Of a DNA stretch of 64,000 bases, positions 8,569 through 32,665 are shown piece by piece. The notes under the pieces are model-generated. The model had not been told where the DNA came from, searched no databases, and saw only the letters and a program-made list of their open reading frames with translations. Position 1 is the stretch's first letter, and every line of letters begins with the position of its first letter. Source of the DNA: an uncultured bacterium (GTDB taxonomy: Bacteria > Patescibacteriota > Minisyncoccia > Moranbacterales > UBA2206); the NCBI GenBank assembly GCA_903831805.1, contig CAIKZD010000009.1, positions 145,192-209,191 of the forward strand, read 5' to 3'. The translations under genes were made by a program, and so were the position numbers.

Positions 8569-8581
8569 TTGACGCAGTAAA

Positions 8582-10667: not shown

Positions 10668-10671
10668 AAGC

Positions 10672-12021: not shown

Positions 12022-12039
12022 ATTAATAAAAGTGAATTA

Positions 12040-12978: not shown

Positions 12979-13116
12979 AAGTTTTAAATTTATCCCCCTT
13001 AACTCTTACCCTTCAATAATATTATAATTTAGGCATTATGGCAATTACAAAAAATAGCATATAAAAAAGGCAGCCTTGACGCGACATGACCGCCTTTTCG
13101 TTTCCCCTCCTTACTT

Positions 13117-14166
13117 TTACGAAATGGATCCGACTTTCCATTTCAGTTTTTTCCCTCCGAAGAAAATCCGCACACCATTCACTTCTTCCGGCGCAGTCCA
13201 TTCCTCCTTCACGAGAGTTACTGTGCCTGTGTTAAACGGCAATCCTACAGATCTGGCCCAAGATGCGGACATGAAATTATCCAACTCACGTAGAGCATCA
13301 TGTTCCTCAAAAAGCTCAGCCAAAAGGCAAATATCTGTGAGGCCAGTATACACCCCAGCTGGCGGACTCAGTGGATCTTTCCAGCGATGAGGTGCCTTAT
13401 CAGAACAGTAATGCACTTTATCACTTCCTCCAGTCGCCGCCAAGACCAGAGCCTCCCGGTCCTCTGGATATTTATAGATCGGCATACACCATTCATCGCC
13501 TTTCGGAATATGTGAGCCATCATAAATATCAAAGAAAGTCCGGAAAAGATGATGTGCGGTAATCCCTCCAAATACATTAGATGGAGCTTCATGAAGAACA
13601 TATCTTAAAACCCTCCTGGTTGAAATATGTTCGATACTGAAAACCAGACCAGGAAAAGCTCTGACCAGAACATCAAATTCCGAAAGTGGCAGAAACTCCC
13701 TCCACACGGGTGGAGTTGTGGGATTTCCAGTCACGTCAAACTCCGATTTTTCCAGATGGACTTTTACTGACATGCCCAACTTCTCAGCTTCGAGAAAACA
13801 CGGGTATTTTTCACGGATTTCTCCCCACCTCACTCCAATTCCGGAATTAGTGGAAAAGCAATCCGCTGGCATCCATTTGATTATTCTGGCGCCAGCCGCA
13901 TAAGCCTCTCTTATACTTTGTGCGGTAGTGTTTTTAGTCAGCATGATGCTCCAGACTATCTCAATCTTGCAGCCGAGCCGTTGGAATCTTTTTCGCTCCT
14001 TGTCGATTTGCCAAGCTGTTTCAATCGGAATTTTAAAGTTGAAGATCGGGACTGCCCGTGCAAATCCAGACACGAAAAGATGTTCCAATACCATTTCCGT
14101 AATTTCATCGTCATCCCGCGGATGAAAATGCGCATCGTCCATTCTTCGTAAAGTCAGTTTTTTCAT
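13117..14166 (-). CDS. pyrC: dihydroorotase (E. coli-type class II)
   Basis: DAHFHPRDDD metal-binding N-terminus. IIKWMPADCFSTNSGIGV matches E. coli PyrC AAKLYPANATTNSSHGV. AGGAGG SD 6 nt upstream of the ATG. Confidence 0.8.
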   Translation of the reverse strand: MKKLTLRRMDDAHFHPRDDDEITEMVLEHLFVSGFARAVPIFNFKIPIETAWQIDKERKRFQRLGCKIEIVWSIMLTKNTTAQSIREAYAAGARIIKWMPADCFSTNSGIGVRWGEIREKYPCFLEAEKLGMSVKVHLEKSEFDVTGNPTTPPVWREFLPLSEFDVLVRAFPGLVFSIEHISTRRVLRYVLHEAPSNVFGGITAHHLFRTFFDIYDGSHIPKGDEWCMPIYKYPEDREALVLAATGGSDKVHYCSDKAPHRWKDPLSPPAGVYTGLTDICLLAELFEEHDALRELDNFMSASWARSVGLPFNTGTVTLVKEEWTAPEEVNGVRIFFGGKKLKWKVGSIS

Positions 14167-14179
14167 TCTTCTCCTCCTA

Positions 14180-15934
14180 TTACTCTTTGATCATACACCC
14201 GACCAATTGTCTGGTTGCAGAAAAGCCATTATTAATAGCCACTTCCCCTAATTGTCCAATCGCTTTCTTGAAAATCCGACGATCAGCAAAGCCTGACGTG
14301 CCGAGAGCCGTAGCCGTTGCACCAGCCATCATAAACTCCGCCGCCGTGTACCCATTCTCATTTCCTCCCATACCGATTGTCGGGACACTGACGGTTTCAA
14401 AGACTTGGCGAACCATCCTCATAGCAACCGGTCTGATTGCCGGTCCGGATAACCCGCCAAAGATATTGGCCAGTTTTGGTCTGCAAGTTTTAATATCGAT
14501 AACCAATCCTATCAACGTATTTATCAGCGAAATAATATCCGCCCCAGCATCTTCCACGGCTCTAGCAATAACTCTAATGTCAGAGACATTCGGCGAAAGC
14601 TTTACGATAACGGGCACGTCTGCCACTCTTTTTACTCCAGCAGTAACCTCTCCCGCCATGAGTGGGTCTGTGCCAAAAGCAATACCGCCTTTCTTGACGT
14701 TCGGACAGGAAATATTAACCTCCAAGGCGGCGATGCCTGTGCCTGCTAATCTGACAGCCAGCTCTTGATACTCCGCCTGACTTTCTCCATTGATGTTCAC
14801 TATGATTGGAATGCCAAATTCGAGCAGTCTCGGCAACGCTTCTTTGAGAAAGCGATCAATACCAATATATTCCAATCCGATGGAGTTGAGCATTCCAGAA
14901 GGCGTTTCGCATACTCTCGGCGCTGCATTGCCTCGTCGCTCATAAAGCGAAAGTCCTTTCACAACTATAGCCCCGATGCCTTTGGTGTCCACACTGCCAT
15001 CTTCAAGAGCAGTAAGGTCTAGCGTGCCAGAAGCATTTAAGAATGGATACTTGAGAGTCAAAGGACCCAAGTGGCATGTAAAATCCACTTCAGCTGGTGC
15101 CTCTTTTTCCGTTACGCGAATTAAGCCTGGTAGTGGCGCAAACTTTTCCCAATCTATCCAGTATGCATCGAAAGTCGGCCCATCACTACAAACGTGTTTA
15201 ACCTCTTTCCCGTCTTCGCCGCCAAAAATTGCGCAACCTTTGCAAGCACCCATACCACACGCCATCATTTCTTCAACGATGACTAGGCATGCGTTCCCAT
15301 ACTTCTTACAAATCTCGCTCACTCTCCTTAACATAAACTTCGGACCGCAAGCGATGACCTGGGAAGCGCCTCCATCATTACGTAAAGTTTCCTCCAATAA
15401 GTCAGTAACGAAACCGATTTTCTCAGAATCAGTTTCAGTTATGGTTTTTACATCAACTCCCAATTTGGCAAAAAAACTCATACCTGCGAGCTGGCTCTTC
15501 TTCTTGGCTCCCAAATAAACCATCACTTCCCTGCCTTCACTCTTAGCTTTTTGTACCGGCGCAACTAGAGCAGCTCCGCCAATACCGCCGCCAATGAAGA
15601 TACATTTTTGAATCTTGGGATCGAAAGAAATTCCCATTCCTTGTGGACCGAATACCTGAATTCGATCACCCTCTTCCAATCGCGAATAAGCTTCAGTGTT
15701 TTTACCCGCTACGCGGAAAAGGATTGAGAGTTCAGAACCACTGGCCTCGACGATTGTGAATGGACGGGGCATTACGGAAGTAGCGCTACCCGGAGACAGG
15801 GCAATAAATTGACCCGCATCTGCCAAGAAATCATTCCTGCCCAAATCCAACCTCAAGAGGAACGCCTCTGAGTCACTGTTTTCCGGCCGACATTCCAAAA
15901 CTGCTGCGTCATAGATCTTATCTTGTTTTTTCAT
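14180..15934 (-). CDS. fused dihydroorotate dehydrogenase class 1B: electron-transfer subunit (PyrK) joined to catalytic subunit (PyrD)
   Basis: The N-terminal ~260 aa are an FAD/NAD-binding domain with a C-terminal CGxGxCxGC...C 2Fe-2S motif (PyrK). The remaining ~320 aa are a TIM-barrel DHODH (FLNASGTLD...NISCPN...GG). It is one uninterrupted ORF. The track start is TTG 15940. ATG 15932-15934 has an AGGAGGG SD. Confidence 0.8.
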   Translation of the reverse strand: MKKQDKIYDAAVLECRPENSDSEAFLLRLDLGRNDFLADAGQFIALSPGSATSVMPRPFTIVEASGSELSILFRVAGKNTEAYSRLEEGDRIQVFGPQGMGISFDPKIQKCIFIGGGIGGAALVAPVQKAKSEGREVMVYLGAKKKSQLAGMSFFAKLGVDVKTITETDSEKIGFVTDLLEETLRNDGGASQVIACGPKFMLRRVSEICKKYGNACLVIVEEMMACGMGACKGCAIFGGEDGKEVKHVCSDGPTFDAYWIDWEKFAPLPGLIRVTEKEAPAEVDFTCHLGPLTLKYPFLNASGTLDLTALEDGSVDTKGIGAIVVKGLSLYERRGNAAPRVCETPSGMLNSIGLEYIGIDRFLKEALPRLLEFGIPIIVNINGESQAEYQELAVRLAGTGIAALEVNISCPNVKKGGIAFGTDPLMAGEVTAGVKRVADVPVIVKLSPNVSDIRVIARAVEDAGADIISLINTLIGLVIDIKTCRPKLANIFGGLSGPAIRPVAMRMVRQVFETVSVPTIGMGGNENGYTAAEFMMAGATATALGTSGFADRRIFKKAIGQLGEVAINNGFSATRQLVGCMIKE

Positions 15935-16000
15935 GGCCAATTCCCTCCTGAAATATTTTTAGGCTAATACCTGCCTTTTCACACATTTTCCGTATTTTAA

Positions 16001-16030
16001 ATGAACAAAAAGACATATAAATTTATGTCT
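16001..16030 (-). terminator. hairpin plus U-tract (terminator/attenuator) in the pyr leader
   Basis: Perfect 7-bp inverted repeat agacata/tatgtct (16011-16030), followed on the minus strand by TTTTGTT. Lies about 70 nt upstream of the pyrK-D start codon. Confidence 0.45.
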
Positions 16031-16209
16031 CCTCCTTACCAGAAAACTTAGCGCAAAAGCCGCTAAAAAGCAAGTTTTCAGCGGAAAACAAAAAGCACGC
16101 ACCTGTAGAAGTGCGTACCGAAAATTTCACTATACTCTAAAAAGCTTAGCAAACTATGGTCATAAACAATTTTATTTGCGCAATGGAAGCCGGCTTTCCT
16201 TGCAATGAT

Positions 16210-16239
16210 ATTGTATCAGTGTACCGTCATCACTGTCAA
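16210..16239 (-). promoter_or_regulatory. sigma70-like promoter for the pyr operon (minus strand)
   Basis: Reverse complement reads TTGACA-N18-TACAAT. A near-palindrome centred on GCCGGC (16177-16209) sits just downstream of the -10. Confidence 0.4.
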
Positions 16240-16262
16240 GCACCGTCCTGTGGATAACTTTT

Positions 16263-16305
16263 CTTCCCTACACCCTCACCCTCTCCAAATCTTCCAACAG
16301 AATAT
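16263..16305 (-). repeat. orphan copy of the 3' end of a large LCAT-like protein gene (encodes ...ILLEDLERVRV*)
   Basis: About 42 nt nearly identical to 21353-21395, the true 3' end of CDS 21358..24597 (...ILVEDLERVKV*). It lies downstream of the 133-aa membrane protein gene. Confidence 0.5.
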
Positions 16306-16315
16306 CCATCACTGT

Positions 16316-16717
16316 CTACTCCCGCACACCCCGCCTGGCATCCCAAACAATTTTTACCAGACTCAAAATGACAAAGAGTGAAGCCATCCAGATGGAAATT
16401 TCTTCCTTGCTGGGCCCGCCGAAAGACAGGAGACCCTCATGATGTTCCGGGGTAACGACAATAACAAGTATAGACAACACTATCCAGACCCCGGCAAAGC
16501 GAAGCCATTTGAGGAATAATTTGTCGGTAATGAAGAAGAGGAAAATAGAAATTATCAAAATGGCAGCAAAAATATGAAATGTAGCCATAACCATTTCGTT
16601 ATTACCCCAAAAACATCTGGAAATCTTGTAATTGCACGGTAAAGAATATAGTACAAATAAGACAGAAGCATTAGTAATTGTTAACATAAACCTCCACCAC
16701 CATGTTTTTTTTCCCAT
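16316..16717 (-). CDS. small integral membrane protein (hypothetical)
   Basis: 133 aa, 3-4 TM helices, 10 nt downstream of the large gene. Confidence 0.4.
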   Translation of the reverse strand: MGKKTWWWRFMLTITNASVLFVLYSLPCNYKISRCFWGNNEMVMATFHIFAAILIISIFLFFITDKLFLKWLRFAGVWIVLSILVIVVTPEHHEGLLSFGGPSKEEISIWMASLFVILSLVKIVWDARRGVRE

Positions 16718-16727
16718 TTTTTTATTT

Positions 16728-19700
16728 TTATAAATTATCCTTAATAAACTTCAAATCCTCAATGAGAATATCTTTTATGGCTGGAGCATAATTTTTTTTA
16801 TCTTTTTGGACCAGCTTAATCATAACATCGAATTGATTTTCCAGCTGTCTTTCAATGGCCGCTATGAGAACTTTTTTCGCTCTCCAGTTGATAAAAGGAT
16901 TGGCCTCAATCATCTTCAAAAGTTTATCCGCCTCTTCAATAAGCTTCATGCCGGATAAGAGGACATTTTTTCCCGACTTGCCTTTGATCAGTCCATCTTG
17001 ATAGTATTTTTCCACACTATCGCGAAAAATGGAAGGCGTCATTGCATAGGCTTCTGGTAAAGTTGCTTCTCCATTGACAATCGGTGACACCGTATAGTCA
17101 ATTTTCTCATCTCCATCAAAATCAGCTCTGATTTCTGAAACATTGGAAAGACCATCCTCAGGAATATAGAAAGATACGTTCGTTTTTTCCGACACCGGCA
17201 GATTGGCAAAAGTAGTTTGCGAGAGAGCTTTCTCATTACCCCCGACCAAGGCAATTTCCTCCAGTTTGAGCGTGTAAGCCCCACTGCCATAACCTTCCAT
17301 TTCAATGCGAATATTTTGCCCTTCGGGGAAACCGACATATTTTCGCTCTCCGAATTGCTGATAGTAACTATTGGGAATGTTTTCTTCGAAAATAGTACGC
17401 TCATTTCCATTCTCATCGGTAATTATTTTTGGTCCTGTGTGGTTGTTTTTTTCGTCATACAGATGGATGTCCAGTGGAGAATGGAGAGACATACGAATGC
17501 GTGGCTTAGCATTGGCATAATCTTCAGGGCGAGAAGTTTTTATGTATTCCGGCAGAGAAGCTTGATTTTCGTTTTTAATAATGTCTGAAATAAAGCGATT
17601 AATTGAATCTGATTCAAGAATATTACTATGATCTACGTCAGGATTAACATCATTATATCTATATAAATCCATCCAATACTTTTCTGTGTTACTATTCCCC
17701 GACATCATCAATGCACTGGGGGTGGTGACTATCTCATCTCCATCCACTGTCCACTTCGGTTCATAAATCGGTTCATATTCTCCTATTCCTGTGCACGATG
17801 GGATTTTCGCTCCCGGAGCAGCATAACATTTCACCTTTTCTTTTTCGGCATAGCTTAAACCGCTGATTGTATCCAATCCCCAGCCGGCAATTTGAATTAA
17901 TTTTATGTTTTCCGGCAAATTCCAAGAGTCAAGATTTTGATGCGTCTGATCTGCCTGCTCCAAAAGATTCTTCTTAAGAATGTTTTCTGATTCTATTTCG
18001 TTTTCAGCCGGCTTTACTCGTCCGTCTTTCTCTCCCGTCAAAAAATCCTGAAACTCATCGAATTCGCCTTTTCCAATGGATTCTCCATAATCCTCTTTGA
18101 ATTTTTTGTAACGCGTGTTATGAGCAGGATTAACAGCGGAAAAATCAATCAGCGGTTCTTCCAGACGATTGAAATATTCTCTCGATGGCAGAAGGCCGTA
18201 CGCTCCCGGCATGTTCTCTGCCAATTTCCTGGCTTCCGCGCGGTTCATAAGTGATCCACCAATCATTTCTTCATCATAACCATACAGCAGTGAAAGGACA
18301 CCCTTCGGCGTTCCCATCTGCGGCGTGCCGACCAGAATAATTTTATCAACCATTTCAGTTTTCCCCATCTCTTCCAGTCTTTTCACAATAGCTTTAGCAA
18401 GAAGCCCGCCATTGGAATGCGCCACGATGGTCACTTTTTTGTTTTGAGAATCCTCAGCCAGCTTTTCAAGCTCGCCTACGGCTGATTTTGTTTCTTCTTC
18501 ATAAGGCGTTCCATATCCAGCTACATCCTCAACACTTTGTCGCCAATCATAAGCGAATAAATTATAATCATCGATGGTTAGATTTTCTTTTAAGGAGTTA
18601 AGATTCGCCCTAAATGTCTTGTATATATTGTTGCCAATTACCGGCGCTCCAACTTCTTCGATAATATCTCGCGTATAAACATCATTAATGCTTCCTCCAT
18701 CCTCATCCAAGGCAAGCTCCGACACATCATTGCCAAAATAGTTCGGCGGCCACAATTGATCCTCACTTCCCAATACCCCCTTTTTATACAATTTACTCGC
18801 CTTTATCCCAGGTAAAAACATCACGCTGGAATTTTCAGAGAACAGGTCCCATTTAGTATTATGATAGCCGTTAGTAAGGGCACCATTTATCACCCCTTCT
18901 CCACCAATTGACGAACTAAGATTGAATTTTGGACCGTCCGGACTGTCATACCAATTATTCTCCAACACCAACATATTGAGAAGATTGGAATTGGACGCCA
19001 ATCCCGGACCATAAATATTGGAAATGACCGCCATATCATCAACGTTGTTTTCAAAATTTGACCTTATGATTTTCAAACTATCATTTTGATTCCTACTCCT
19101 GACTCTCAAATCAACGTTGACATCCACCCCTGCGTTATCGGAAAATTGACAACTCTCAAGGCGCAACTTTCCACCATAGAAATCCAGCGCCGCTTGTCCG
19201 TAATCCGTAGCATAAGCAGAATTAATGAAAGAATGTAAGAAATTTTGAAAGACTTGGCAATTTTGGCACGTTCCGCCCCCGCTTTCCGGGCTTTCCCCTC
19301 CACCGGATATTTTCACATATTTCAAACGCGATTCAGGAGAAGATGTTTTACCAGAATTGTCATAATACAGATCATTCCTAAAATATATCAGGCTACCGCG
19401 ATGCTTTGTCTCTTTGCTTGAAATATAGATTGGGTCATCATGAGTTCCTTCGGCGAGGATGCGTCCTCCTAAAATAGAAATACTTGTGTTATCCCCCGAA
19501 CTATCCTTCATGAATTCAATTTTTGCACCAGGTTCAATGGTAAGCGTGGCTCCTCCATATACATGAATTGATTTGTTGAAAACGTATAGGCCTTTTTGCA
19601 ATGTGACATCTTTTTTTATATCACAACCGCTATCCTCGGCATTGGCGCATATGCCCCCATCCGCCACTTCAGCTGCCACAGTCGGATGAGAATAAAAAAT

Positions 19701-19781
19701 AGATACGACCACAAAAGACATGGCAAAAAATGCAATCGATAAAAAAATTATCAGTTTCCTATTTTTATTTTGTTTTCTCAT
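16728..19781 (-). CDS. large secreted protein: signal peptide, parallel beta-helix, LCAT/PGAP1-like alpha/beta-hydrolase (putative lipase/acyltransferase)
   Basis: 1017 aa. N-terminal signal/TM. Repetitive beta-helix region. AYDWRQS and VTIVAHSNGG (GHSxG nucleophile elbow) as in the lecithin:cholesterol acyltransferase family. Confidence 0.6.
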   Translation of the reverse strand: MRKQNKNRKLIIFLSIAFFAMSFVVVSIFYSHPTVAAEVADGGICANAEDSGCDIKKDVTLQKGLYVFNKSIHVYGGATLTIEPGAKIEFMKDSSGDNTSISILGGRILAEGTHDDPIYISSKETKHRGSLIYFRNDLYYDNSGKTSSPESRLKYVKISGGGESPESGGGTCQNCQVFQNFLHSFINSAYATDYGQAALDFYGGKLRLESCQFSDNAGVDVNVDLRVRSRNQNDSLKIIRSNFENNVDDMAVISNIYGPGLASNSNLLNMLVLENNWYDSPDGPKFNLSSSIGGEGVINGALTNGYHNTKWDLFSENSSVMFLPGIKASKLYKKGVLGSEDQLWPPNYFGNDVSELALDEDGGSINDVYTRDIIEEVGAPVIGNNIYKTFRANLNSLKENLTIDDYNLFAYDWRQSVEDVAGYGTPYEEETKSAVGELEKLAEDSQNKKVTIVAHSNGGLLAKAIVKRLEEMGKTEMVDKIILVGTPQMGTPKGVLSLLYGYDEEMIGGSLMNRAEARKLAENMPGAYGLLPSREYFNRLEEPLIDFSAVNPAHNTRYKKFKEDYGESIGKGEFDEFQDFLTGEKDGRVKPAENEIESENILKKNLLEQADQTHQNLDSWNLPENIKLIQIAGWGLDTISGLSYAEKEKVKCYAAPGAKIPSCTGIGEYEPIYEPKWTVDGDEIVTTPSALMMSGNSNTEKYWMDLYRYNDVNPDVDHSNILESDSINRFISDIIKNENQASLPEYIKTSRPEDYANAKPRIRMSLHSPLDIHLYDEKNNHTGPKIITDENGNERTIFEENIPNSYYQQFGERKYVGFPEGQNIRIEMEGYGSGAYTLKLEEIALVGGNEKALSQTTFANLPVSEKTNVSFYIPEDGLSNVSEIRADFDGDEKIDYTVSPIVNGEATLPEAYAMTPSIFRDSVEKYYQDGLIKGKSGKNVLLSGMKLIEEADKLLKMIEANPFINWRAKKVLIAAIERQLENQFDVMIKLVQKDKKNYAPAIKDILIEDLKFIKDNL

Positions 19782-19848
19782 TAGAGTTTATTTTAATTTT
19801 TACCCTAACCATATCATACCACATTCTCCAAAAACAGAAAGTGGTTGC

Positions 19849-19883
19849 GCTGTAGAGGCGCAGCAATGCTGCGCCTCTACAGC
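19849..19883. repeat. GC-rich perfect palindrome (17-bp arms, 1-nt spacer)
   Basis: gctgtagaggcgcagca a tgctgcgcctctacagc. Absent from the paralogous copy at ~25090-25130. Confidence 0.7.
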
Positions 19884-19923
19884 AAGGCTTGAGAAATTTG
19901 GGGATTAGGGTAAGATAGAGAAT

Positions 19924-19992
19924 ATGAGTGAAAGAGATTCAAAAATCTATATTGTCATTCCGACATATAACGAAGCGCTGGGGATAAGGTGA
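19924..19992 (+). pseudogene. truncated N-terminal fragment of a GT2 glycosyltransferase gene (paralog of 25162..25851)
   Basis: MSERDSKIYIVIPTYNEALGIR* versus MSETDPKIYIVIPAYNEGKVIEQ in the intact copy. Stop after 22 codons. Confidence 0.55.
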
Positions 19993-20082
19993 TTGGAGGC
20001 ATATTTCATAACGTCATACTTGACCTTTTGAATGTTTAAGGTATACTTGAAACATAATATAAAATATCATTACCTTTAAGCT

Positions 20083-21342
20083 ATGGATGAAACACTTAAA
20101 AAACTGGAGAAATACAACTATTGGCATAAACAAGCCATAAAAACCGGATTTATCCGAAAATTTTACTTGTCCAAAATAAAAAAATACACCGGCAATTCTT
20201 TGATTAAGGTGCTGCTTGGCCAGCGCCGAGTCGGCAAAAGCTATGTTTTGCGTCAAATTATAGATGCCCTGATCAAACAAGGAGTCAACCCAAAAAATAC
20301 TTTCTATTTCAATAAAGAGCTAGTGGAATTTGATGAGATAAAGACTCACAAACAGCTTTTTGATCTCATCGCTTTATACAAAAAAAATCTGAAAGTTAAA
20401 GGAAAAATATATCTATTGCTTGATGAAATTCAAGAAATCGACCAATGGGAAAAGACGGTAAACTCTCTCTCACAAAATCACAAAGAAGAATATGAGATTT
20501 TCATCACCGGTTCCAATTCCAAAATGCTTTCTTCTGAATTGGCCACTCACTTAAGCGGCCGCTATGTAACTTTTGAAATTTCCCCTTTTTCCTTTGATGA
20601 ATTTATATCTTCGCGAAATCTTCCAAAAAACAAAGCGAGTTTTTTGTCATACATGAAAACTGGCGGGTTGCCGGAACTCTTCAATCTGACCGACGCCGAA
20701 GCGCGCGTCCATTATGTCTCCGCCTTGAAGGATACTGTTATGCTGCATGATATCGTGGAACGGCACGGCGTCAAAGACATTCCTCTTTTGGAAAATGTCT
20801 TTAAATTCATCATGGACAATATCGGCAGTTTGTTTTCGGTCAACTCCGTCGTGAATTATCTTATAAGTCACAAAATCAAGACCAATCACGAAACGATTTC
20901 CAATTATGTAAACTATCTGGTGCAATCTTTCCTGATCCACTCCGCCCAGCGTTATGACATACGCGGCAAGGAAATTTTTTCCACCGGCCAAAAATATTAT
21001 CTGAACGATTTGGCATTCAGAAATTATTTGACATCCGGCTTCAGCTATGGACTAGGCAAGCAACTCGAAAATATTATCTATTTGCATTATAGAAGACTGG
21101 GCTATTCTGTTTGCGCTGGGTCGATTTCAAATGAAGAAGTTGATTTTGTATTGGAAAAAGAAGGCGAAAAAAAATATATCCAAGTCGCCTATACGCTTTC
21201 AGATAAAAAAACAGCCGATCGAGAATTTAGGAGTTTGGAAAAAATCAGAGATGCTTTTGAAAAGATAGTCATCAGCCTGGATGATGCGCCACTTGGAAAC
21301 AAGAATGGCATCCGCCATGTTTGCGCGTGGGAGTTGGAATAG
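20083..21342 (+). CDS. AAA+ ATPase of the COG1373 type (AAA domain plus DUF4143-like C-terminus)
   Basis: 419 aa. LLGQRRVGKSYVL Walker A, LLLDEIQ Walker B. Confidence 0.7.
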   Translation: MDETLKKLEKYNYWHKQAIKTGFIRKFYLSKIKKYTGNSLIKVLLGQRRVGKSYVLRQIIDALIKQGVNPKNTFYFNKELVEFDEIKTHKQLFDLIALYKKNLKVKGKIYLLLDEIQEIDQWEKTVNSLSQNHKEEYEIFITGSNSKMLSSELATHLSGRYVTFEISPFSFDEFISSRNLPKNKASFLSYMKTGGLPELFNLTDAEARVHYVSALKDTVMLHDIVERHGVKDIPLLENVFKFIMDNIGSLFSVNSVVNYLISHKIKTNHETISNYVNYLVQSFLIHSAQRYDIRGKEIFSTGQKYYLNDLAFRNYLTSGFSYGLGKQLENIIYLHYRRLGYSVCAGSISNEEVDFVLEKEGEKKYIQVAYTLSDKKTADREFRSLEKIRDAFEKIVISLDDAPLGNKNGIRHVCAWELE

Positions 21343-21357
21343 AAACCATACTCTTCC

Positions 21358-24300
21358 CTACACCTTCACCCTCTCCAAATCTTCCACCAAAATTGTTTGG
21401 ATTTTTGAATCAATGGTGCGAGCGAAATTTTTGTCTCGCTGAATTTGGTTTTCCAAGTCATTGATTTCGCGGTTGATGTTTTGTTTGAGATTTTCAATCA
21501 CCTTGTCCTTGGCCCACTGCGGTAGCCAGTGAGATTGAAAAGCGTTGAGTAAGACTATCATTTCTTGAATGTTTTTCAATTTAACTTCTAGGACAATTCT
21601 GGTGCTCAGTTTAGAAATGAGACCGAGGTTGAAATAGTGGGAAATGTTAGCGCTCATGGCGTTGAGATTGGTGGTGAGTGTAAACTTTGCTTCTGTTCGG
21701 GCTTGATTGCCCGCGGCGTCGGTCGCGGTGACGGCGACGGTGTGCGTGCCAAGTTTTTCCAGCGACAAATCGATTTGTTTTTTTTCTATGATATTTCCGT
21801 CATAGAAAACTTTTGTGACCAGTTTATCTGCCGCACTTTGATTGTCATTGGCAACATAGGTTATTGGCAACATGCCAGAGTTTTGGTAGTTTATATTTTT
21901 GGGTGAAGTGATTTGAACAGTGGGCACCGCCTGATCGAGCTTGATGGTTATTGTTTTTTCTATTTCAATGTTACCAGCTTTGTCAGTTGAATGATATTTA
22001 ATCTGATGCGTGCCGTCATTTGAAATTGTCAGTGTGTTTCCATTTTGCGCACTGCCACCATCCAGCGTATAGAAAGTTTGGTCTGCCCCGGACAAAGTTT
22101 CAGTGGCGGAAAAATTCAGTGTCACCGCCGATGTGTACCAATCATTCTCCCCTTTCGTGCCGGTGACTTCTGCCGTTGTGATGGGTGGGGTGGTGTCGAT
22201 GTTGATGTTTCCGACTGTCATGCTATTTTTATTGCCAGCATTATCCTCCGCCTCACCGGTCGCAACTTGATTTTGGCCTTCGCTACTCAGTGTCACGTTT
22301 GGCGTAACCGATCCAGCTTTTATACCAGAATCATCTGTGGCAGCAAAATGAATTTTAACATCGGTGTTGTTCCAACCATTCGCATTGGCCACCGGCGTGA
22401 CTGAGGCGGTGATGGTGGGCGGAGTGGTGTCGACAGATTTAATATCTTCAACCGGCGCTTCGTTTTTAGGATCATACGCGACCTCGTATTTTTTAACTTC
22501 CCCGAGTTTAATCTCTCCTTGAACCAAAGAAGAGCTATCATTTTTCATTCCCGTATAATCAGCATAATCCGACCCGATGTGATATTCCCCATTGCCATTG
22601 CCGGTTATTTTGACATCATATTTTCCTTTCTTTGGATTTGGGATAGAAAATATTTTAAACCCATCTGGATTTGATTGACCGGCATATTTGGCTAACGGAA
22701 TATTATTGATATTATCACTAGTAATAATATTCCCCTCAGGATCTTTTATCTCAACATTTACCGGAGATGCAAACCAAACAACCATCTCATCATTAATTTG
22801 TGGAGAATCAACAATATTATCCAGTGTTTCATCCAATCTTTGTGCGATTATTTTTTCTGATTGACTGACAACCTCCTTGTGCCCAAAGCTCAACGAATCG
22901 AAAAATTTACTTTGAATCTGAGCAGATGAAAGCATAACCTCACCGTCTCCGCTAGAATCATTTTTTTGCGGATCTATTGGATCCGGCTTACCATCTTTCC
23001 AAAGATCAGTATTTGAATCATCAGAAACGACAGTAGGAATTGTATTGACAGTTGGCTGATCTTTGCCGGCAATTATACTAACCTTGACTCTTTGATTTAG
23101 CAGGTCAATATTATTATTCAGTCCATCAAGAAAATCATTCTTTTCATTCATTGTCGCATAACCCATTAGACTGTCCGGCGTATTCTTGGGGTAAGTATAG
23201 TTATAACGCGGCATTAGTTCTCCGACAGAAGGCATAAAATCATGAATTGCTTTATAATCATTAGGTGCTTTATTTTTTATCTTCAAATGCGCCTTATATG
23301 CTTCCATCAACAATCTGTTGTCCCAATTTTTTGGTATATATCCGCCTTCCCATGCATCATAAACATCCGACGATCCCTTATTGGGCGTGGCCAACATAAT
23401 TAAATTATCGACATCGTTATTATAACCACTGCCTTCTATATAACTTCTTGCCACCAACCCTCCCATAGAGTGAGCCACAATATTCACTTCAGAAGTTCCA
23501 TTGAGAGAATTGGCTTTTTGAATTAGTGGCTTTAAATAATTTTTTGCAGAATCAGCATTGCTATTCCTCCAATCATAATAGGCGATGAAAAAATCTTTGT
23601 TTTCTACATAGCCCATATCTTTAAAAGATTGGATGATGCCATCATAAGTATGATCCATCATTGTCCAATTACCAGGAAGCGCGCCACCGATCATGATATC
23701 CGGATTGATTGCCGCGGCTATCCCTGGAACAAGGATGACTGGCTCTCTGGTTTTCGATGGATCACTGCCTAGCCATGGTTTGAAAATAACTCCGTCTCCA
23801 ACCTTATTTCCTTTCCCATCAAGATTTTTTTCTGCATTGACCCAAGTCGTATCATAATATGGCCCGCTCTTATCCCCCCACCAATTATTCTGTGCATTCA
23901 AGCTGTAGCTATGTCCGCCAGAAGATGCAGCGCCCATCATATTGCCTTCTATGATATTATTCGTCATAGTAGGACTCTTATATGTAGTGTTGTTATAAAC
24001 TACTACCCCAACTGAATTATTTGTAATGGCATTACCTTCTATAATAGGCAAGGAATCCATTAAATATAAAGCACAAAAACCACTATATTTTATTTCATTA
24101 TTTTTTATTATAGCATTGTCCGAATTGTTTATAGTAAGCGCTCCAGATACATTTCCACTTCTTGTTCCATATAAGAAAATTACATTTTCTATGTCAGCAT
24201 CTGATTTGTACAGATATAACCCTGGCCAATCCCCTGAAGCTGGACTAGTCGCATCGCCATCCCCATTGGTGTCTCCACCAAAAGAATCATCCTTCCAAGA

Positions 24301-24597
24301 AGTGAAAACAATCTTATCATCTTCTGAACCTTTAGCAATTAACTCGTGTGACATTATGCTGATACTAGCACCTGGCTTGACCTTAATGACTGTCCCAGCC
24401 TCTATTGTAAGTTTAGCATTTATTGTAAGATAGTCTGCAATCACATAAGGACTTTCTATTTTCTTCCATATCGTGGGTTCATTTATTGAATAGCCCTTGA
24501 TTATCGTCGGGCCAGCAGCATAAGTGCTTTTTGCACTAGCTAAGAAAGAAATTCCTGAAATAATTATTACTGCCAAACTAACTAATAATCTTTTCAT
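21358..24597 (-). CDS. large secreted protein: signal peptide, beta-helix, LCAT/PGAP1-like alpha/beta-hydrolase, three Ig-like domains, C-terminal coiled coil
   Basis: The track ORF extends to 24678, but the signal peptide MKRLLVSLAVIIISGISFLASA starts at ATG 24595-24597. YYDWRNS and VNIVAHSMGG lipase motifs. Repeated TTPP...T Ig-like modules. Paralog of CDS 16728..19781. Confidence 0.6.
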   Translation of the reverse strand: MKRLLVSLAVIIISGISFLASAKSTYAAGPTIIKGYSINEPTIWKKIESPYVIADYLTINAKLTIEAGTVIKVKPGASISIMSHELIAKGSEDDKIVFTSWKDDSFGGDTNGDGDATSPASGDWPGLYLYKSDADIENVIFLYGTRSGNVSGALTINNSDNAIIKNNEIKYSGFCALYLMDSLPIIEGNAITNNSVGVVVYNNTTYKSPTMTNNIIEGNMMGAASSGGHSYSLNAQNNWWGDKSGPYYDTTWVNAEKNLDGKGNKVGDGVIFKPWLGSDPSKTREPVILVPGIAAAINPDIMIGGALPGNWTMMDHTYDGIIQSFKDMGYVENKDFFIAYYDWRNSNADSAKNYLKPLIQKANSLNGTSEVNIVAHSMGGLVARSYIEGSGYNNDVDNLIMLATPNKGSSDVYDAWEGGYIPKNWDNRLLMEAYKAHLKIKNKAPNDYKAIHDFMPSVGELMPRYNYTYPKNTPDSLMGYATMNEKNDFLDGLNNNIDLLNQRVKVSIIAGKDQPTVNTIPTVVSDDSNTDLWKDGKPDPIDPQKNDSSGDGEVMLSSAQIQSKFFDSLSFGHKEVVSQSEKIIAQRLDETLDNIVDSPQINDEMVVWFASPVNVEIKDPEGNIITSDNINNIPLAKYAGQSNPDGFKIFSIPNPKKGKYDVKITGNGNGEYHIGSDYADYTGMKNDSSSLVQGEIKLGEVKKYEVAYDPKNEAPVEDIKSVDTTPPTITASVTPVANANGWNNTDVKIHFAATDDSGIKAGSVTPNVTLSSEGQNQVATGEAEDNAGNKNSMTVGNINIDTTPPITTAEVTGTKGENDWYTSAVTLNFSATETLSGADQTFYTLDGGSAQNGNTLTISNDGTHQIKYHSTDKAGNIEIEKTITIKLDQAVPTVQITSPKNINYQNSGMLPITYVANDNQSAADKLVTKVFYDGNIIEKKQIDLSLEKLGTHTVAVTATDAAGNQARTEAKFTLTTNLNAMSANISHYFNLGLISKLSTRIVLEVKLKNIQEMIVLLNAFQSHWLPQWAKDKVIENLKQNINREINDLENQIQRDKNFARTIDSKIQTILVEDLERVKV

Positions 24598-24610
24598 ATT
24601 TTGTATGCTA

Positions 24611-25039
24611 CTAATTAAGAGCCTTAAATATTCCCCCGACAGCCATTGGGAAAATGATATAAACAAAAATAAACGCATAGGTTACAATTATTGCAATAGA
24701 AATAATTAGCGAAATAAAAAATGATCTTATATTTATCTTATCATAAATTATTTTTGTGAAAATAAATGGGGATGTAATTATAAGCAATAGCACTATATAT
24801 ATACTCCCCATACTTATTCCATCGAAATAATCAAGCTGATTATAATGATGAATATATTTTAAAATAAAGTCATATATAACTGTTGTTGAAAAATAAAAAA
24901 ATATTAGCGTTAACAGTGAACTTAAACTCACATACCGCCATCTACTTTTTTCCTTCAAAAACCTCAACCAAAAAAACGGCGAGATTATGATGCCGGCAAT
25001 GAGAAATGAACAAATCCAGATAATTAAAGTTTTAATCAT
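24611..25039 (-). CDS. small integral membrane protein (hypothetical)
   Basis: 142 aa, 4 TM helices. Confidence 0.4.
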   Translation of the reverse strand: MIKTLIIWICSFLIAGIIISPFFWLRFLKEKSRWRYVSLSSLLTLIFFYFSTTVIYDFILKYIHHYNQLDYFDGISMGSIYIVLLLIITSPFIFTKIIYDKINIRSFFISLIISIAIIVTYAFIFVYIIFPMAVGGIFKALN

Positions 25040-25161
25040 TTTTAGTTTTTAATTTTTAAACCTAACCATATCATACCACATTCTAAAATAACTGAAAGTG
25101 GTCAGGGAGCTTGCGAAAGCCAAGGCTTGATAAATTTGAGGATTAGGGTAAGATAGAATAT

Positions 25162-25851
25162 ATGAGTGAAACAGACCCAAAAATCTACATCGTTATTCCG
25201 GCGTATAATGAGGGCAAGGTCATTGAGCAAACCATTCTATCGCTTAAGAACGAGAGGTATTCAAATATACTCGTAGTTAATGATGGCAGCTCTGACAAAA
25301 CGAAAGAGAACGCTCACCTCGCCGGTGCAGAGGTAATTGACCATATAATCAATCGCGGGCAAGGCGCGGCGCTGCGCACCGGGATAGAATATCTGCGGGA
25401 AAATTCCGATCCGGATATTATCGTCACCTTTGACGCCGACGGCCAACACCAGGCCAAGGATATACAAAAATTTGTCGAACTGATTTCTAAGGGTGAATGT
25501 GACATTGCCCTAGGCTCCCGTTTTTTAGCAAAAAAATCAAACATCCCAAGATTGAGAAAGATCATTCTCAAGCTCGGTGTGATTTTTACAAGATTCATTT
25601 CGGACATAGCTGTCACTGATACGCATAATGGCTTTAGGGCCCTTGGCAGGAAAGCCATCCAGTCGATAGAAATTACGCAAAGGGGCATGGAGCATGCTTC
25701 GGAGATAATTGATGAGATAAAAAAGAGAAAATTATCTTTCAAAGAAGTCCCCGTAGAAGTTATCTATACTGAATACTCAAAGATAAAGGGACAAAAAAAT
25801 TCTAACTTTGTTAAAATAGGGATCAAAATGATTCTTAAAAAACTTTTATGA
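25162..25851 (+). CDS. GT2 glycosyltransferase (Dpm1-like, soluble)
   Basis: IVIPAYNEG...VNDGSSD...FDADGQHQ. Confidence 0.75.
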   Translation: MSETDPKIYIVIPAYNEGKVIEQTILSLKNERYSNILVVNDGSSDKTKENAHLAGAEVIDHIINRGQGAALRTGIEYLRENSDPDIIVTFDADGQHQAKDIQKFVELISKGECDIALGSRFLAKKSNIPRLRKIILKLGVIFTRFISDIAVTDTHNGFRALGRKAIQSIEITQRGMEHASEIIDEIKKRKLSFKEVPVEVIYTEYSKIKGQKNSNFVKIGIKMILKKLL

Positions 25852-26192
25852 AAATAACCTTCCTAAATCTCATCGTCCTTGTCTTTGGAGCCTTTGCCAT
25901 ATCTAGGGTTTTTTTAAGGTTCCGCGGTAAGGAACTTTCCCTGGCCGGAGCAATTTTTTGGAGCTTTATTTGGTTTACTATTTTCATCGTAGCGATCTTC
26001 CCTAGCTCCAGCGTCGAACTGGCCAAAATCATCGGCATCGGAAGGGGCGCCGATTCAGCCTTTTTCATTTCTATCCTACTTCTTTTTTATCTGATATTCA
26101 GACTCTATATAAAATTAGATAAGATCGATAAAGATTTGACCAAGCTGTCCATAGAAATTTCCAAAAAACTGCATAAAAATAATATTCAATAA
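25848..26192 (+). CDS. small membrane protein (DUF2304-like, GT2-associated)
   Basis: 114 aa, 3 TM helices. ATGA overlap with the upstream GT2 gene. Confidence 0.45.
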   Translation: MKITFLNLIVLVFGAFAISRVFLRFRGKELSLAGAIFWSFIWFTIFIVAIFPSSSVELAKIIGIGRGADSAFFISILLLFYLIFRLYIKLDKIDKDLTKLSIEISKKLHKNNIQ

Positions 26193-26195
26193 GAG

Positions 26196-27308
26196 ATGAA
26201 AATTTGTTTTATCACTGAACACTTCCCGCCTCACATCGGCGGCGTGGAAATTGTTTTTGCGGAATATGCCAAAAGACTTGCGCAAAGAGGCCATCAGGTG
26301 CGAGTCGTCACCAGCAATTCCGGAGGGATAATCGGAGTAAAAAATGAAGGTGGCTTTGAAACGCATTATCTAGATTGCAAATCTTTTTTTGGCCATCCGC
26401 TCATTCCTCAGGACGAAGCAAATAGACACGCCGCCTGGGCAGATATCATCCATACCACCACCTATACGGCCGCCATGCCCGCACTCAAAGCAGCCAAAAA
26501 GTTCAAAAAGCCTTGCATCCTGATGGTGCATGAAATCCTGGAGAAGAAATGGTTTCAAGTAGAAAAAAACCCACTGAAAGCCCTGGGATTTCTTTTTTTT
26601 GAATGGTTCGTAGTGAAAAAAGATTACACCTTTTGGCAAGTCATTTCTCAAGCCACAAAAAAAGATTTATTGAAATACAACGTGCCAGAAAAAAAGATAC
26701 AATTGATCTATCATGGTATCGATTATTCCCTTTGGAATCCACAAGTCCAAGAAAAAAGTCTGACCAAATTATTCGACCTAGAAGATGCTTGCAAGATATT
26801 CTTGTATAACGGCCGCCCAGGACAAACCAAGGGGATTTTCCTTCTTTTGGAAGCCATAAAAAAAATCAGAAATGATTTACCAGAAAATTTCAAATTCGGA
26901 TTCATTCTAAGCCAAAAACCAGTGGCCGGGAAAAAAAGGTTTGAAAAATTGGTCAGCGAATATGGCCTGGAAAATTTAGTGCGAGCAGCCGCCATTCCGG
27001 CTTATTTAGATCTCCCTCCCTACCGCAAAAATGCTTTCGCCTTCATTGTCCCCTCGCTCACGGAAGGCTTTGGATTTTCTGCGGCTGAAACTTGTACACT
27101 TGGAGTTCCGATCATTTCCAGCAACGCCGGTTCTCTTCCTGAAGTTGTCAGTGGAAAAGTTCTATTTTTTGAAAACGGAAACGTAGATGATTTAGCAGAA
27201 AAAATTCTACTAGCGACGAAAAATCAATTCGACACCATTCCCCAGAAAAAATTTGATTGGGAAGAAGCCATCAATAAGGCAGAAGCAATATATAAAGAAC
27301 TTGCATGA
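26196..27308 (+). CDS. GT4 (GT-B) glycosyltransferase
   Basis: 370 aa. MKICFITEHFPPHIGGVE N-terminus. C-terminal EGFGFSAAETCTLGVPIIS motif. Confidence 0.75.
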   Translation: MKICFITEHFPPHIGGVEIVFAEYAKRLAQRGHQVRVVTSNSGGIIGVKNEGGFETHYLDCKSFFGHPLIPQDEANRHAAWADIIHTTTYTAAMPALKAAKKFKKPCILMVHEILEKKWFQVEKNPLKALGFLFFEWFVVKKDYTFWQVISQATKKDLLKYNVPEKKIQLIYHGIDYSLWNPQVQEKSLTKLFDLEDACKIFLYNGRPGQTKGIFLLLEAIKKIRNDLPENFKFGFILSQKPVAGKKRFEKLVSEYGLENLVRAAAIPAYLDLPPYRKNAFAFIVPSLTEGFGFSAAETCTLGVPIISSNAGSLPEVVSGKVLFFENGNVDDLAEKILLATKNQFDTIPQKKFDWEEAINKAEAIYKELA

Positions 27309-32526: not shown

Positions 32527-32543
32527 ATTCTTCAATCAGTTTC

Positions 32544-32572
32544 TTGACCGAGGCTATTTTACCAAGTATTAT
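32544..32572 (+). promoter_or_regulatory. sigma70-like promoter TTGACC-N17-TATTAT
   Basis: Sits 94 nt upstream of the ATG at 32666, in the only sizeable gap of the glycan operon. Confidence 0.4.
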
Positions 32573-32665
32573 AAAGAAGTATTTGAAGAAAATACAGTGA
32601 AATAATCAAGAATGGATGGTATTCTTTCTTTAAACTTAGTAAACCATGTGCTGTTATAAAAAATT

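What the first reader, a model, noticed from the sequence alone, without database searches (positions are those of the whole stretch)
16728..24597. Two giant paralogous secreted LCAT-like lipase/acyltransferases with beta-helix and Ig-like domains
Both proteins (1017 and ~1080 aa) combine a signal peptide and a parallel beta-helix with a catalytic core carrying the YDWR and AHS(M/N)GG motifs of the lecithin:cholesterol acyltransferase / PGAP1-like alpha/beta-hydrolase family. One also has three Ig-like modules and a coiled-coil tail. Surface-displayed phospholipase/acyltransferases of this size would suit lipid scavenging or membrane remodelling of a host or partner cell. That is especially relevant if this is a reduced-genome organism that cannot make its own lipids.
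Basis: partly seen in the sequence, partly recalled or inferred. Interest (0 to 1): 0.6.

Follow-up and report, generated by a model that had tools for sequence, protein, structure and literature searches.

The report
Exported lipases paired with membrane partners
Two large exported lipase genes of an ultra-small Moranbacteria (CPR) bacterium are real and look catalytically intact, and each sits beside a small membrane-protein gene, a pairing repeated across this bacterial group that may help explain how bacteria reported to lack lipid synthesis attack or harvest other cells' membranes.

Summary
Both minus-strand ORFs exist: A at 16728..19781 (1017 aa) and B at 21358..24597 (1079 aa). Both carry YDWR and AHS(N/M)GG motifs, pass Pfam's LCAT threshold, and have a family-invariant Ser/Asp/His set (A S456/D682/H718; B S377/D551/H573). 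They share a layout: N-terminal export signal, beta-helix, hydrolase, beta-sandwich, C-terminal helical tail. B adds Ig-like modules. The source is a Candidatus Moranbacteria (Patescibacteria/CPR) genome.

Each lipase gene abuts a same-strand gene for a small 3-4-TM protein. This holds for 66/73 family-A loci and 28/36 family-B loci, against 3/169 (downstream) and 9/140 (either side) for other long ORFs. The partners fall into several families with no detectable homology, sometimes in tandem copies.

My best reading is exported phospholipase-type enzymes acting on foreign membranes, each with an immunity-like membrane partner. No activity, substrate or partner role was tested. This is a new variant of a known kind, of moderately high interest.

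The parts
16728..19781 (-). Gene A: 1017-aa exported multidomain LCAT/LPLA2-fold lipase (family A)
19671..19781 (-). A residues 1-37: N-terminal K/R-rich segment plus hydrophobic helix ending in VAA (Sec signal peptide or signal anchor)
   Evidence: Hydropathy segment 7-32. Model helix 6-30. 55 of 57 family members have the same feature.
18852..19634 (-). A residues about 50-310: right-handed beta-helix
17547..18839 (-). A residues 315-745: alpha/beta-hydrolase core with large cap insertion. YDWR 411-414 (18540..18551), AHSNGG 454-459, S456 (18414..18416), D682 (17736..17738), H718 (17628..17630), near-invariant C652/C663
17064..17510 (-). A residues 758-906: beta-sandwich domain, also present in B
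   Evidence: Model strands 761-906. Conserved 'RIRMSL(Y/H)SPLD' motif, used as a search pattern.
16731..17042 (-). A residues 914-1017: C-terminal helical tail (about three helices), a module found almost only on lipases
   Evidence: Helices 916-928, 935-960, 966-993 and 1000-1016. Always at the extreme C-terminus in both families. Only 158 representatives among 1.84 billion proteins; 77 of the 140 newly found proteins checked carry a lipase core.
16316..16717 (-). Partner of A: 133-aa four-TM protein, 10 bp downstream of A on the same strand
   Evidence: No Pfam family above threshold. Four hydrophobic segments. Homologues lie directly downstream of the family-A gene at nearly all of the fetched loci that extend far enough. 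Four reverse look-ups from distant members each landed 1 bp downstream of an LCAT-domain gene.
16094..16119 (-). Terminator-like hairpin (11 pairs plus T-run) after the partner gene; a possible end of the two-gene A unit
   Evidence: This is a consensus match only, and the number of such sites in the region was not above chance.
21358..24597 (-). Gene B: 1079-aa exported multidomain lipase (family B)
   Evidence: ORF. Pfam LCAT 54.9, PGAP1 35.7 and Lipase_2 33 bits. AF2 pLDDT 87.1. Foldseek top matches are bacterial lipases, PhaZ7 and LipA. 345 homologues in Patescibacteria.
24517..24597 (-). B residues 1-27: signal peptide-like N-terminus ending in YAA
   Evidence: Hydropathy segment 1-24. 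Model helix 2-20. 44 of 55 family members have the feature.
23788..24510 (-). B residues 30-270: right-handed beta-helix
   Evidence: Pfam Beta_helix 39.1 bits at residues 126-233. Sub-threshold NosD family hit. Model strands.
22822..23751 (-). B residues 283-592: compact alpha/beta-hydrolase lipase core. YDWR 341-344, AHSMGG 375-380, S377 (23467..23469), D551 (22945..22947), H573 (22879..22881)
   Evidence: Invariant columns in the 58-sequence alignment A3. Coordinates checked. Foldseek matches.
22462..22800 (-). B residues 600-712: beta-sandwich domain, counterpart of the one in A
   Evidence: Model strands 603-708. By-eye resemblance to A residues 758-906 (translations).
21670..22425 (-). 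B residues 725-976: three Ig-like / OmpL47-type beta modules (the middle one is modelled poorly)
   Evidence: NF047446, 77 bits, two stretches. Weaker Big_13, HYR and Big_3_3 matches. pLDDT below 50 for residues 804-889.
21361..21669 (-). B residues 977-1079: C-terminal helical tail, homologous to the tail of A
   Evidence: BLASTP E 3e-6 against the A tail. Model helices 978-1076. Profile A6.
24611..25039 (-). Partner of B: 142-aa multi-TM protein, 13 bp upstream of B on the same strand
   Evidence: No Pfam hit. 34-46% identical to small ORFs that overlap the stop codon of B homologues in L089 and L090, where there are two tandem copies. Counted as 4 TM by the peak-picking count.

Best explanation
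A and B are Sec-exported, catalytically competent serine lipases of phospholipase type. They belong to two large families that, in these searches, were found almost only in Patescibacteria.

Both share one modular plan. An N-terminal beta-helix stalk probably binds a surface glycan. The hydrolase domain follows: A has the LCAT/LPLA2/Tle4 fold with a large cap, and B has a compact bacterial-lipase fold. After it come a beta-sandwich, Ig-like modules in B only, and a lipase-associated C-terminal helical tail.

Each enzyme is encoded as a tight two-gene unit with a small 3-4-TM protein.

Proposed mechanism (inferred): the enzyme is exported and held near the cell surface. There it hydrolyses ester bonds of glycerophospholipids in a neighbouring or host cell membrane (phospholipase A action). 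This damages that membrane and releases fatty acids and lysolipids that the cell, which by literature cannot make lipids, can take up. The cognate small membrane protein sits in the producer's own membrane and keeps the enzyme from attacking it, acting as an immunity-like partner.

Shown here: the gene models, the invariant Ser/Asp/His set, the predicted folds, the export signals, the gene pairing and its enrichment, and the taxonomic range of the relatives retrieved.

Inferred only: the substrate, the direction of attack, the role of the partner, and the roles of the beta-helix and the tail.
For: Enzyme identity:
- Pfam LCAT and PGAP1 are above threshold for both proteins.
- Ser/Asp/His are invariant in alignments of 60 (A) and 58 (B) homologues.
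- The AF2 models are confident: pLDDT 85.1 and 87.1.
- B: the best Foldseek matches are secreted bacterial lipases.

Export:
- A K/R-preceded N-terminal hydrophobic segment is present in 55/57 family-A and 44/55 family-B members.

Pairing with a small membrane protein:
- A small ORF with at least 3 TM segments lies directly downstream on the same strand in 66/73 family-A loci. For family B it is 28/46 downstream and 28/36 on either side. For other ORFs of at least 400 aa in the same loci it is 3/169 downstream and 9/140 on either side.
- Gaps are typically -4 to +30 bp.
- Four of four reverse look-ups from distant partner proteins landed next to an LCAT-domain gene, while the other neighbouring genes differed.
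- The partners fall into at least four families. The three largest show no detectable homology to one another.
- Partners occur as 2-3 tandem copies in several genomes.
- In this window each paralogue has its own partner.
- This combination is typical of cognate immunity proteins.

Precedents:
- S. aureus TslM has an N-terminal phospholipase, a C-terminal helical domain and membrane-anchored immunity proteins (PMC13560087).
- LCAT-family phospholipases serve as membrane-lytic effectors of apicomplexan parasites (PMC10325081, PMC5830472, from titles and abstracts only).

Lineage context:
- CPR bacteria lack lipid synthesis and are enriched in lysolipids (PMC7242380).
- Their lipid uptake and breakdown mechanisms are stated to be unidentified (PMC11665869).
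Against: - No activity, substrate or localisation was tested.
- The partner proteins have very short extracellular loops (about 17-20 aa). Known lipase immunity proteins (Tli, TilA, TilM) use globular domains to occlude the active site.
- Partner gene order varies: upstream of B in this window, downstream in L089 and L090.
- 7 of 73 family-A loci and 8 of 36 family-B loci lack a detectable partner.
- The genes sit in a surface-glycan biosynthesis locus, not near any uptake or lipid-handling genes.
- The absence of fatty-acid and phospholipid synthesis genes in this particular genome was not checked. It rests on literature for CPR in general.
- B also shows weak similarity to the PHB depolymerase PhaZ7.
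Confidence: 0.5

Rival explanations
1. Acyl-chain piracy by transacylation. Enzyme A works as an LCAT/LPLA2/PDAT-type acyltransferase, not a plain hydrolase. It moves acyl chains from host phospholipids onto an acceptor (a lysolipid or a glycerol-based lipid) in the bacterium's own membrane. The four-TM partner presents the acceptor or inserts the product. On this reading the module is the missing lipid-acquisition machinery of Parcubacteria.
Against: A machinery component would be expected to be conserved, but the partners of the two families are several families with no detectable homology. B does not have the LCAT fold. Tandem non-identical partner copies fit immunity better. The second-best structural match of A is a toxin, Tle4.
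Confidence: 0.15
2. Housekeeping envelope enzymes whose small membrane partner is an anchor, activator or folding helper and not an immunity protein. This would resemble the Lif foldase encoded beside family I.1/I.2 lipases, or a membrane dock for the C-terminal tail.
For: B's structural matches include Pseudomonas, Burkholderia and Acinetobacter lipases solved with their operon-encoded, membrane-anchored foldases (2es4, 9g8u). If the signal peptide is cleaved, the enzymes would need something to retain them at the surface. The tail is conserved and occurs almost only on lipases. The genes lie in a cell-envelope locus.
Against: The partners are 95-150 aa with 3-4 TM segments and short loops. 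That is unlike Lif (about 340 aa with one TM and a large helical domain, from established knowledge). Families A and B share the tail but have partners with no detectable homology, so the tail is unlikely to be the partner's binding site.
Confidence: 0.17
3. Esterases for non-membrane polymers: extracellular polyester (PHA) depolymerases, or esterases acting on acylated polysaccharides, with the beta-helix as a carbohydrate-binding or carbohydrate-active domain.
For: B gives weak hits to PhaZ7 (NCBIfam 32.6 bits; PDB E 0.02; Foldseek E about 1e-5). The beta-helix resembles pectate lyases and tailspike depolymerases. The neighbourhood is dominated by glycan genes, including a GH28.
Against: The PhaZ7 model score is far below its cut-off of 450. 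A's best matches by a wide margin are phospholipases. A polymer esterase acting outside the cell gives no obvious reason for a cognate integral-membrane partner at nearly every locus.
Confidence: 0.1

Closest known systems
Lysosomal phospholipase A2 (LPLA2/PLA2G15) and LCAT, Pfam PF02450
   Different: Sequence identity is about 15%. The bacterial proteins are about 1000 aa, with added beta-helix, beta-sandwich and helical-tail modules and a paired membrane-protein gene. B does not share the LCAT fold beyond the N-terminal half of the core. Acyltransferase activity is untested.
Pseudomonas aeruginosa T6SS phospholipase effector Tle4 with immunity protein Tli4 (PDB 4r1d)
   Different: Here there are no T6SS genes. 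There is a Sec-type N-terminus, and CPR cells are reported to be monoderm (established knowledge). The partner is a four-TM membrane protein, whereas Tli4 is soluble and periplasmic (recalled from the literature, not checked here).
Staphylococcus aureus T7SS 'reverse' lipase toxins TslA/TslM with TilA/TilM immunity proteins (PMC13560087)
   Same: The domain order is lipase followed by a C-terminal helical domain. Both are phospholipases acting from outside the membrane. Protective proteins are membrane-anchored, encoded nearby and often present in several non-identical copies.
   Different: Those toxins lack a signal peptide and need WXG100/Lap partners and a T7SS. None of these was seen here. 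TilM has one TM segment plus a globular DUF1433 domain, not four TM segments with short loops. No sequence relationship was detected.
Bacterial family I lipases (Proteus, Pseudomonas, Burkholderia), B. subtilis LipA, BlEst2 and PhaZ7
   Same: These are the best structural matches of B's catalytic domain (Foldseek E 2.5e-10 to about 1e-5). The AHSMG nucleophile motif is shared with LipA and PhaZ7. Family I.1/I.2 lipases are also encoded beside a membrane-anchored helper.
   Different: B is four times larger and has extra modules. Its partner is unlike the Lif foldase. The NCBIfam PhaZ7 model scores 32.6 bits against a cut-off of 450.
Apicomplexan secreted LCAT-like phospholipases (P. falciparum LCAT, T. 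gondii LCAT)
   Same: In both cases an LCAT-family enzyme is used by a host-dependent organism on host-derived membranes (PMC10325081, PMC5830472, from titles and abstracts only).
   Different: Those enzymes are eukaryotic and have a different architecture. No paired membrane partner is known for them. The resemblance is one of logic only.

Membership tests
LCAT/LPLA2 family (Pfam PF02450) | Match to the family profile above the curated threshold | tested here: met
   A scores 56.2 bits (profile positions 90-327 of 392). B scores 54.9 bits (profile positions 68-176 only). The cut-off is 21.
LCAT/LPLA2 family (Pfam PF02450) | Ser-Asp-His triad with the Ser in an (A/G)HSxG elbow, conserved across relatives | tested here: met
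   A S456/D682/H718 and B S377/D551/H573 are invariant in alignments A1 (60 sequences) and A3 (58 sequences). Their geometry in the models could not be inspected because no coordinates were available.
LCAT/LPLA2 family (Pfam PF02450) | Characteristic fold: hydrolase core plus membrane-binding and cap subdomains | tested here: met
LCAT/LPLA2 family (Pfam PF02450), protein B | Characteristic fold: hydrolase core plus membrane-binding and cap subdomains | tested here: not met
   No LCAT or LPLA2 entry is among the top 50 Foldseek matches. The top matches are BlEst2, Proteus and Pseudomonas lipases, PhaZ7 and LipA.
LCAT/LPLA2 family (Pfam PF02450) | Phospholipase A and/or transacylase activity on phospholipids | not testable with these tools
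   This needs enzyme assays.
T6SS Tle4-type effector with Tli4 immunity | Delivery by a type VI secretion system (linkage to VgrG, PAAR or Hcp) | tested here: not met
   Pfam annotation of the main ORFs found no T6SS gene in the 64-kb window. The proteins have Sec-type N-termini.
T6SS Tle4-type effector with Tli4 immunity | Adjacent cognate protective protein | tested here: inconclusive
   An adjacent small gene is strongly enriched. However, it encodes an integral membrane protein of unknown function, and its protective role is untested.
T7SS reverse lipase toxins (Tsl1/Tsl2) | C-terminal LXG-like targeting domain with WXG100/Lap partner genes, and no signal peptide | tested here: not met
   An N-terminal signal-like segment is present. 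Neighbouring genes in the window and in L004, L005 and L086-L090 show no WXG100-like Pfam hit. Whether the tail is related to LXG domains was not tested.
Family I.1/I.2 lipase with Lif foldase | Operon partner is a single-TM foldase of about 340 aa with a large helical domain | tested here: not met
   The partners are 133 and 142 aa with four hydrophobic segments and short loops.
Extracellular nPHA(scl) depolymerase PhaZ7 (NCBIfam NF050060) | Equivalog model score above the cut-off | tested here: not met
   B scores 32.6 bits against a cut-off of 450. A gives no hit.
OmpL47-type beta-barrel domain (NCBIfam NF047446) | Domain model score above the cut-off | tested here: met
   B scores 77 bits against a cut-off of 40, in two stretches. 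The full-length OmpL47 equivalog is not met (55.7 against 250).

The most novel reading that the evidence does not exclude
The lipase-plus-small-membrane-protein pair is the long-sought lipid-acquisition device of Parcubacteria. A surface LCAT-fold transacylase strips acyl chains or lysolipids from a host cell's membrane, and its cognate four-TM partner receives or inserts them into the symbiont's own bilayer. This would explain how cells without fatty-acid or phospholipid synthesis build membranes rich in lysolipids.
Probability: 0.15. Interest if true: 0.85.

Novelty: new variant of a known kind. Interest (0 to 1): 0.6.

Why it matters
Patescibacteria (CPR) are reported to lack the pathways for membrane lipids. 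[quoted passage not shown]

This work defines two abundant families of exported lipases, found here almost only in Patescibacteria, with intact catalytic residues. It also shows a near-universal coupling to small membrane proteins and a tail module found almost only on lipases. In the sources searched, these genes are unnamed or carry only generic or misleading labels such as 'hypothetical' and 'pimeloyl-ACP methyl ester carboxylesterase'.

The result is a concrete, clonable pair of proteins. With it one can test whether these bacteria kill or tap their hosts through membrane lipolysis, and how they avoid digesting themselves. If the partners are immunity proteins, this would extend toxin-immunity logic for lipases to Sec-exported enzymes in CPR bacteria.

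Tried and rejected
- The AlphaFold-database fold search (afdb50) was unavailable.
- A phmmer search of PDB with full-length A gave only a marginal lipase hit.
- A 95-aa query spanning the Asp/His region found nothing relevant. The Asp and His assignment therefore rests on family invariance and whole-domain structural matches, not on a residue-level alignment to LPLA2.
- Model coordinates are not exposed, so triad geometry and the position of the C652/C663 pair could not be inspected.
- Pfam searches of the partner proteins gave nothing above threshold. There were only sub-threshold DUF202 matches in 9 of 35 members, probably due to hydrophobic composition.
- Profile-profile comparison of three partner families showed no homology, with probability at most 10.5%. 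I rejected the idea of one ancestral partner family.
- Promoter and terminator scans were not above chance. Only one hairpin after the A partner gene is worth noting.
- tRNA and Rfam scans of the window were empty.
- Literature searches for 'Patescibacteria' with 'LCAT', and for CPR lipases, found no prior description of these families.
- I considered B as a PHB depolymerase and rejected membership on score.
- I considered the AAA_14/DUF4143 gene between A and B as part of the system. I set it aside because it is on the opposite strand and is absent from most other loci.

Full report
**What is there**

The minus strand carries two long ORFs. A is at 16728..19781 (1017 aa). B is at 21358..24678, and its sensible start is at 24597 (1079 aa), because the longer form overlaps the upstream ORF 24611..25039.

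A has YDWR at 411-414 and AHSNGG at 454-459. B has YDWR at 341-344 and AHSMGG at 375-380.

Both proteins pass Pfam's curated thresholds for LCAT (56.2 and 54.9 bits against 21) and for PGAP1. B also matches Beta_helix, Lipase_2 and Palm_thioest, and carries two OmpL47-type barrel domains.

A and B are only distantly related. They share 27% identity over 182 residues of the core and 24% over the last 131 residues.

**Source organism and families**

A has 341 scored relatives and B has 345. Named entries are almost all Candidatus Moranbacteria or other Parcubacteria/Patescibacteria. Most are called 'hypothetical', and some are labelled 'pimeloyl-ACP methyl ester carboxylesterase'.

A scan of one genome per species (185,579 species) found 519 relatives of A. 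The best 80 are nearly all Moranbacteria or other Parcubacteria.

Pfam annotation of the main ORFs across the window shows a surface-glycan biosynthesis locus with no lipid-synthesis genes.

**Catalytic residues**

In a 60-sequence alignment of family A, S456, D682 and H718 are invariant, as is YDWR. C652 and C663 are near-invariant.

In a 58-sequence alignment of family B, S377, D551 and H573 are invariant.

I could not inspect the geometry of these residues in the models because coordinates are not exposed. A short sequence query over the Asp/His region found nothing in PDB.

**Folds**

The AF2 model of A (pLDDT 85.1) shows these elements in order:
- an N-terminal helix at 6-30
- a beta-helix at about 53-310
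- a hydrolase with a large cap at about 318-745
- a beta-sandwich at 761-906
- a helical tail at 916-1016

The model of B (pLDDT 87.1) has the same order of modules, with a compact hydrolase at 283-592 and three Ig-like modules. Its Foldseek matches are BlEst2, Proteus, Pseudomonas and Burkholderia lipases, PhaZ7 and LipA. No LCAT or LPLA2 entry is in the top 50.

'LCAT-like' is therefore well founded for A. For B it describes only the motif region.

**Export**

Both proteins begin with a K/R-rich segment and a hydrophobic helix ending in VAA (A) or YAA (B). The same feature occurs in 55/57 family-A and 44/55 family-B members. I could not tell whether this is a cleaved signal peptide or a membrane anchor.

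Ten base pairs downstream of A, on the same strand, lies a 133-aa ORF (16316..16717). It has four hydrophobic segments and no Pfam family above threshold.

Its homologues lie directly downstream of the family-A gene at nearly all of the fetched loci that extend far enough. Typical gaps are 1-30 bp. Several genomes have 2-3 tandem copies.

The protein family has 161 detected members. The named ones are Patescibacteria, and none has an informative name.

I started from four distant members of this family and looked at their surroundings. All four lie 1 bp downstream of an LCAT-domain gene of 835-1110 aa, while the rest of each neighbourhood differs.

The alignment suggests an N-in/C-in topology with a Cys pair in the first outer loop. 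This is my reading.

B has its own partner: the 142-aa multi-TM ORF 24611..25039, 13 bp upstream. It is 34-46% identical to small ORFs that overlap the stop codon of B homologues elsewhere. One of those loci has two tandem copies.

I then counted adjacent small ORFs across 80 genome loci and 80 metagenome loci. The criterion was an ORF of 80-220 aa with at least 3 TM segments, on the same strand and directly adjacent:

| Gene class | Partner directly downstream | Partner on either side |
|---|---|---|
| Family A | 66/73 | 57/62 |
| Family B | 28/46 | 28/36 |
| Other ORFs of at least 400 aa in the same loci | 3/169 | 9/140 |

B-family partners fall into at least four sequence clusters. The partner families of A and B show no detectable homology by profile-profile comparison, with probability at most 10.5%.

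**The tail**

The C-terminal helical module of about 100 aa is shared by many members of both families and is always terminal.

A profile search of 1.84 billion representative proteins found only 158 hits at E up to 0.001. Of the 140 newly found proteins among the 150 listed, 77 carry a lipase core and most of the rest look like fragments. One full-length exception carries a GDSL-type motif instead, which I identified by eye.

The tail is thus a rare module found almost only on lipases. Its role is unknown.

**Interpretation**

The shown facts fit exported, active lipases that work at a membrane surface and each need a cognate integral-membrane protein.

Four features of the partners are typical of immunity proteins:
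- there is one partner per paralogue
- the partner families show no detectable homology to one another
- tandem non-identical copies occur
- the partner gene is tightly coupled to the enzyme gene

The nearest structural relative of A after LPLA2 is an antibacterial toxin with an immunity partner. S. aureus TslM is a direct precedent for a phospholipase neutralised by membrane-anchored proteins (PMC13560087). LCAT-family enzymes also serve parasites as membrane-lytic effectors (from titles and abstracts only).

CPR bacteria lack lipid synthesis and are rich in lysolipids (PMC7242380). Their means of lipid acquisition is stated to be unknown (PMC11665869). A secreted phospholipase was proposed to serve this purpose in Vampirococcus (PMC8080830).

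I therefore favour this reading at confidence about 0.5: host-directed phospholipase action that both damages the target and yields usable lipids, with an immunity-like partner.

Caveats:
- The partners' short loops are unlike those of known lipase immunity proteins.
- Partner gene order varies.
- Nothing was assayed.
- This genome's own lipid pathways were not checked.

Rival readings, in order of my confidence:
- The partner is an anchor or foldase (about 0.17).
- A true acyltransferase pirates host acyl chains (about 0.15).
- The enzymes are polymer esterases (about 0.1).

**Novelty**

The enzymes belong to known superfamilies. The new elements are:
- the architecture, found here almost only in Patescibacteria
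- the near-universal pairing with small multi-TM proteins from several families with no detectable homology
- the lipase-associated tail

I found no prior description of these families. I rate this a new variant of a known kind, with interest 0.6.

Noticed in passing
window 1..64000, especially 25162..42049 and 58758..63732: Almost the whole window is a cell-surface glycan locus. It holds at least 15 glycosyltransferases, several methyltransferases, a DegT aminotransferase, a PglD-like acetyltransferase, a polysaccharide deacetylase, a Wzx-like flippase (40769..42049), sugar-nucleotide epimerases/dehydratases and UDP-glucose dehydrogenase. GT-C-like ALG10 (993..2216) and PMT_2 (5018..6940) proteins are also present.
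   Followed up: partly
window 28001..48000: This segment has distinctly lower G+C (0.31-0.36) than the flanks (0.42-0.47) and covers the central part of the glycan cluster. It resembles a variable or horizontally exchanged surface-glycan cassette.
   Followed up: no
window 20083..21342 (+): An AAA_14/DUF4143 ATPase gene sits between the two lipase modules on the opposite strand. A similar gene lies about 1.6 kb upstream of the family-A gene in the closed Moranbacteria genome CP175956.1 (L004 7102..8352). It is absent from most other loci, so it may be a mobile or defence-type gene.
   Followed up: partly
window 43765..47575 (-): Defence-like genes lie inside the low-GC segment. They are a Schlafen AlbA_2/HATPase_c_4 protein (43765..45156), an AbiEii nucleotidyltransferase toxin (46174..46965), and an overlapping upstream 206-aa ORF (46955..47575) that could be its antitoxin.
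   Followed up: no
window 13117..15940 (-): The 586-aa protein fuses the Fe-S domain of the dihydroorotate dehydrogenase B electron-transfer subunit to a DHO_dh catalytic domain. The adjacent 349-aa ORF (13117..14166) has no Pfam hit, yet it travels with that gene on other contigs of the same organism.
   Followed up: no
window 6955..8568 (+): A GH28/pectate-lyase-like beta-helix protein is encoded beside an LPG_synthase_TM-family membrane protein (8582..9514). This is a third beta-helix protein in the window.
   Followed up: no
P0448 (936 aa) and P0380 (403 aa): The lipase-type C-terminal tail also ends a protein with a signal peptide and a GDSL-like 'GDSYQSGEG' motif (P0448). It also ends a short protein with beta-helix, sandwich and Ig modules but no lipase core (P0380). 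So the tail travels with at least three kinds of lipolytic domain (the motif was read by eye).
   Followed up: partly
L024, L038, L044, L049, L056, L069, L078, L090: These genomes have two or three tandem, non-identical copies of the small membrane partner gene after a single lipase gene.
   Followed up: partly
L016, L018, L028, L031-L033, L047, L069-L071 and others: Many public MAG records that carry these Moranbacteria-type genes are titled 'uncultured Bdellovibrionales', 'Micavibrio' or 'Saccharibacteria'. Given the gene content, these labels look like mis-assigned taxonomy rather than real occurrence in those groups. This was not verified.
   Followed up: no
L109 5832..6281: One family-B lipase locus is followed by a small protein of the family-A partner type (hmmsearch E 7.5e-35). 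Partner families can therefore be exchanged between the two lipase families.
   Followed up: no
window 22030..22185 (B residues 804-855), extending to residue 889: The middle Ig-like module of B is modelled with pLDDT below 50, although it matches the OmpL47-type domain well by sequence. Most aligned homologues probably lack this module, so it may be a recent insertion or duplication.
   Followed up: no
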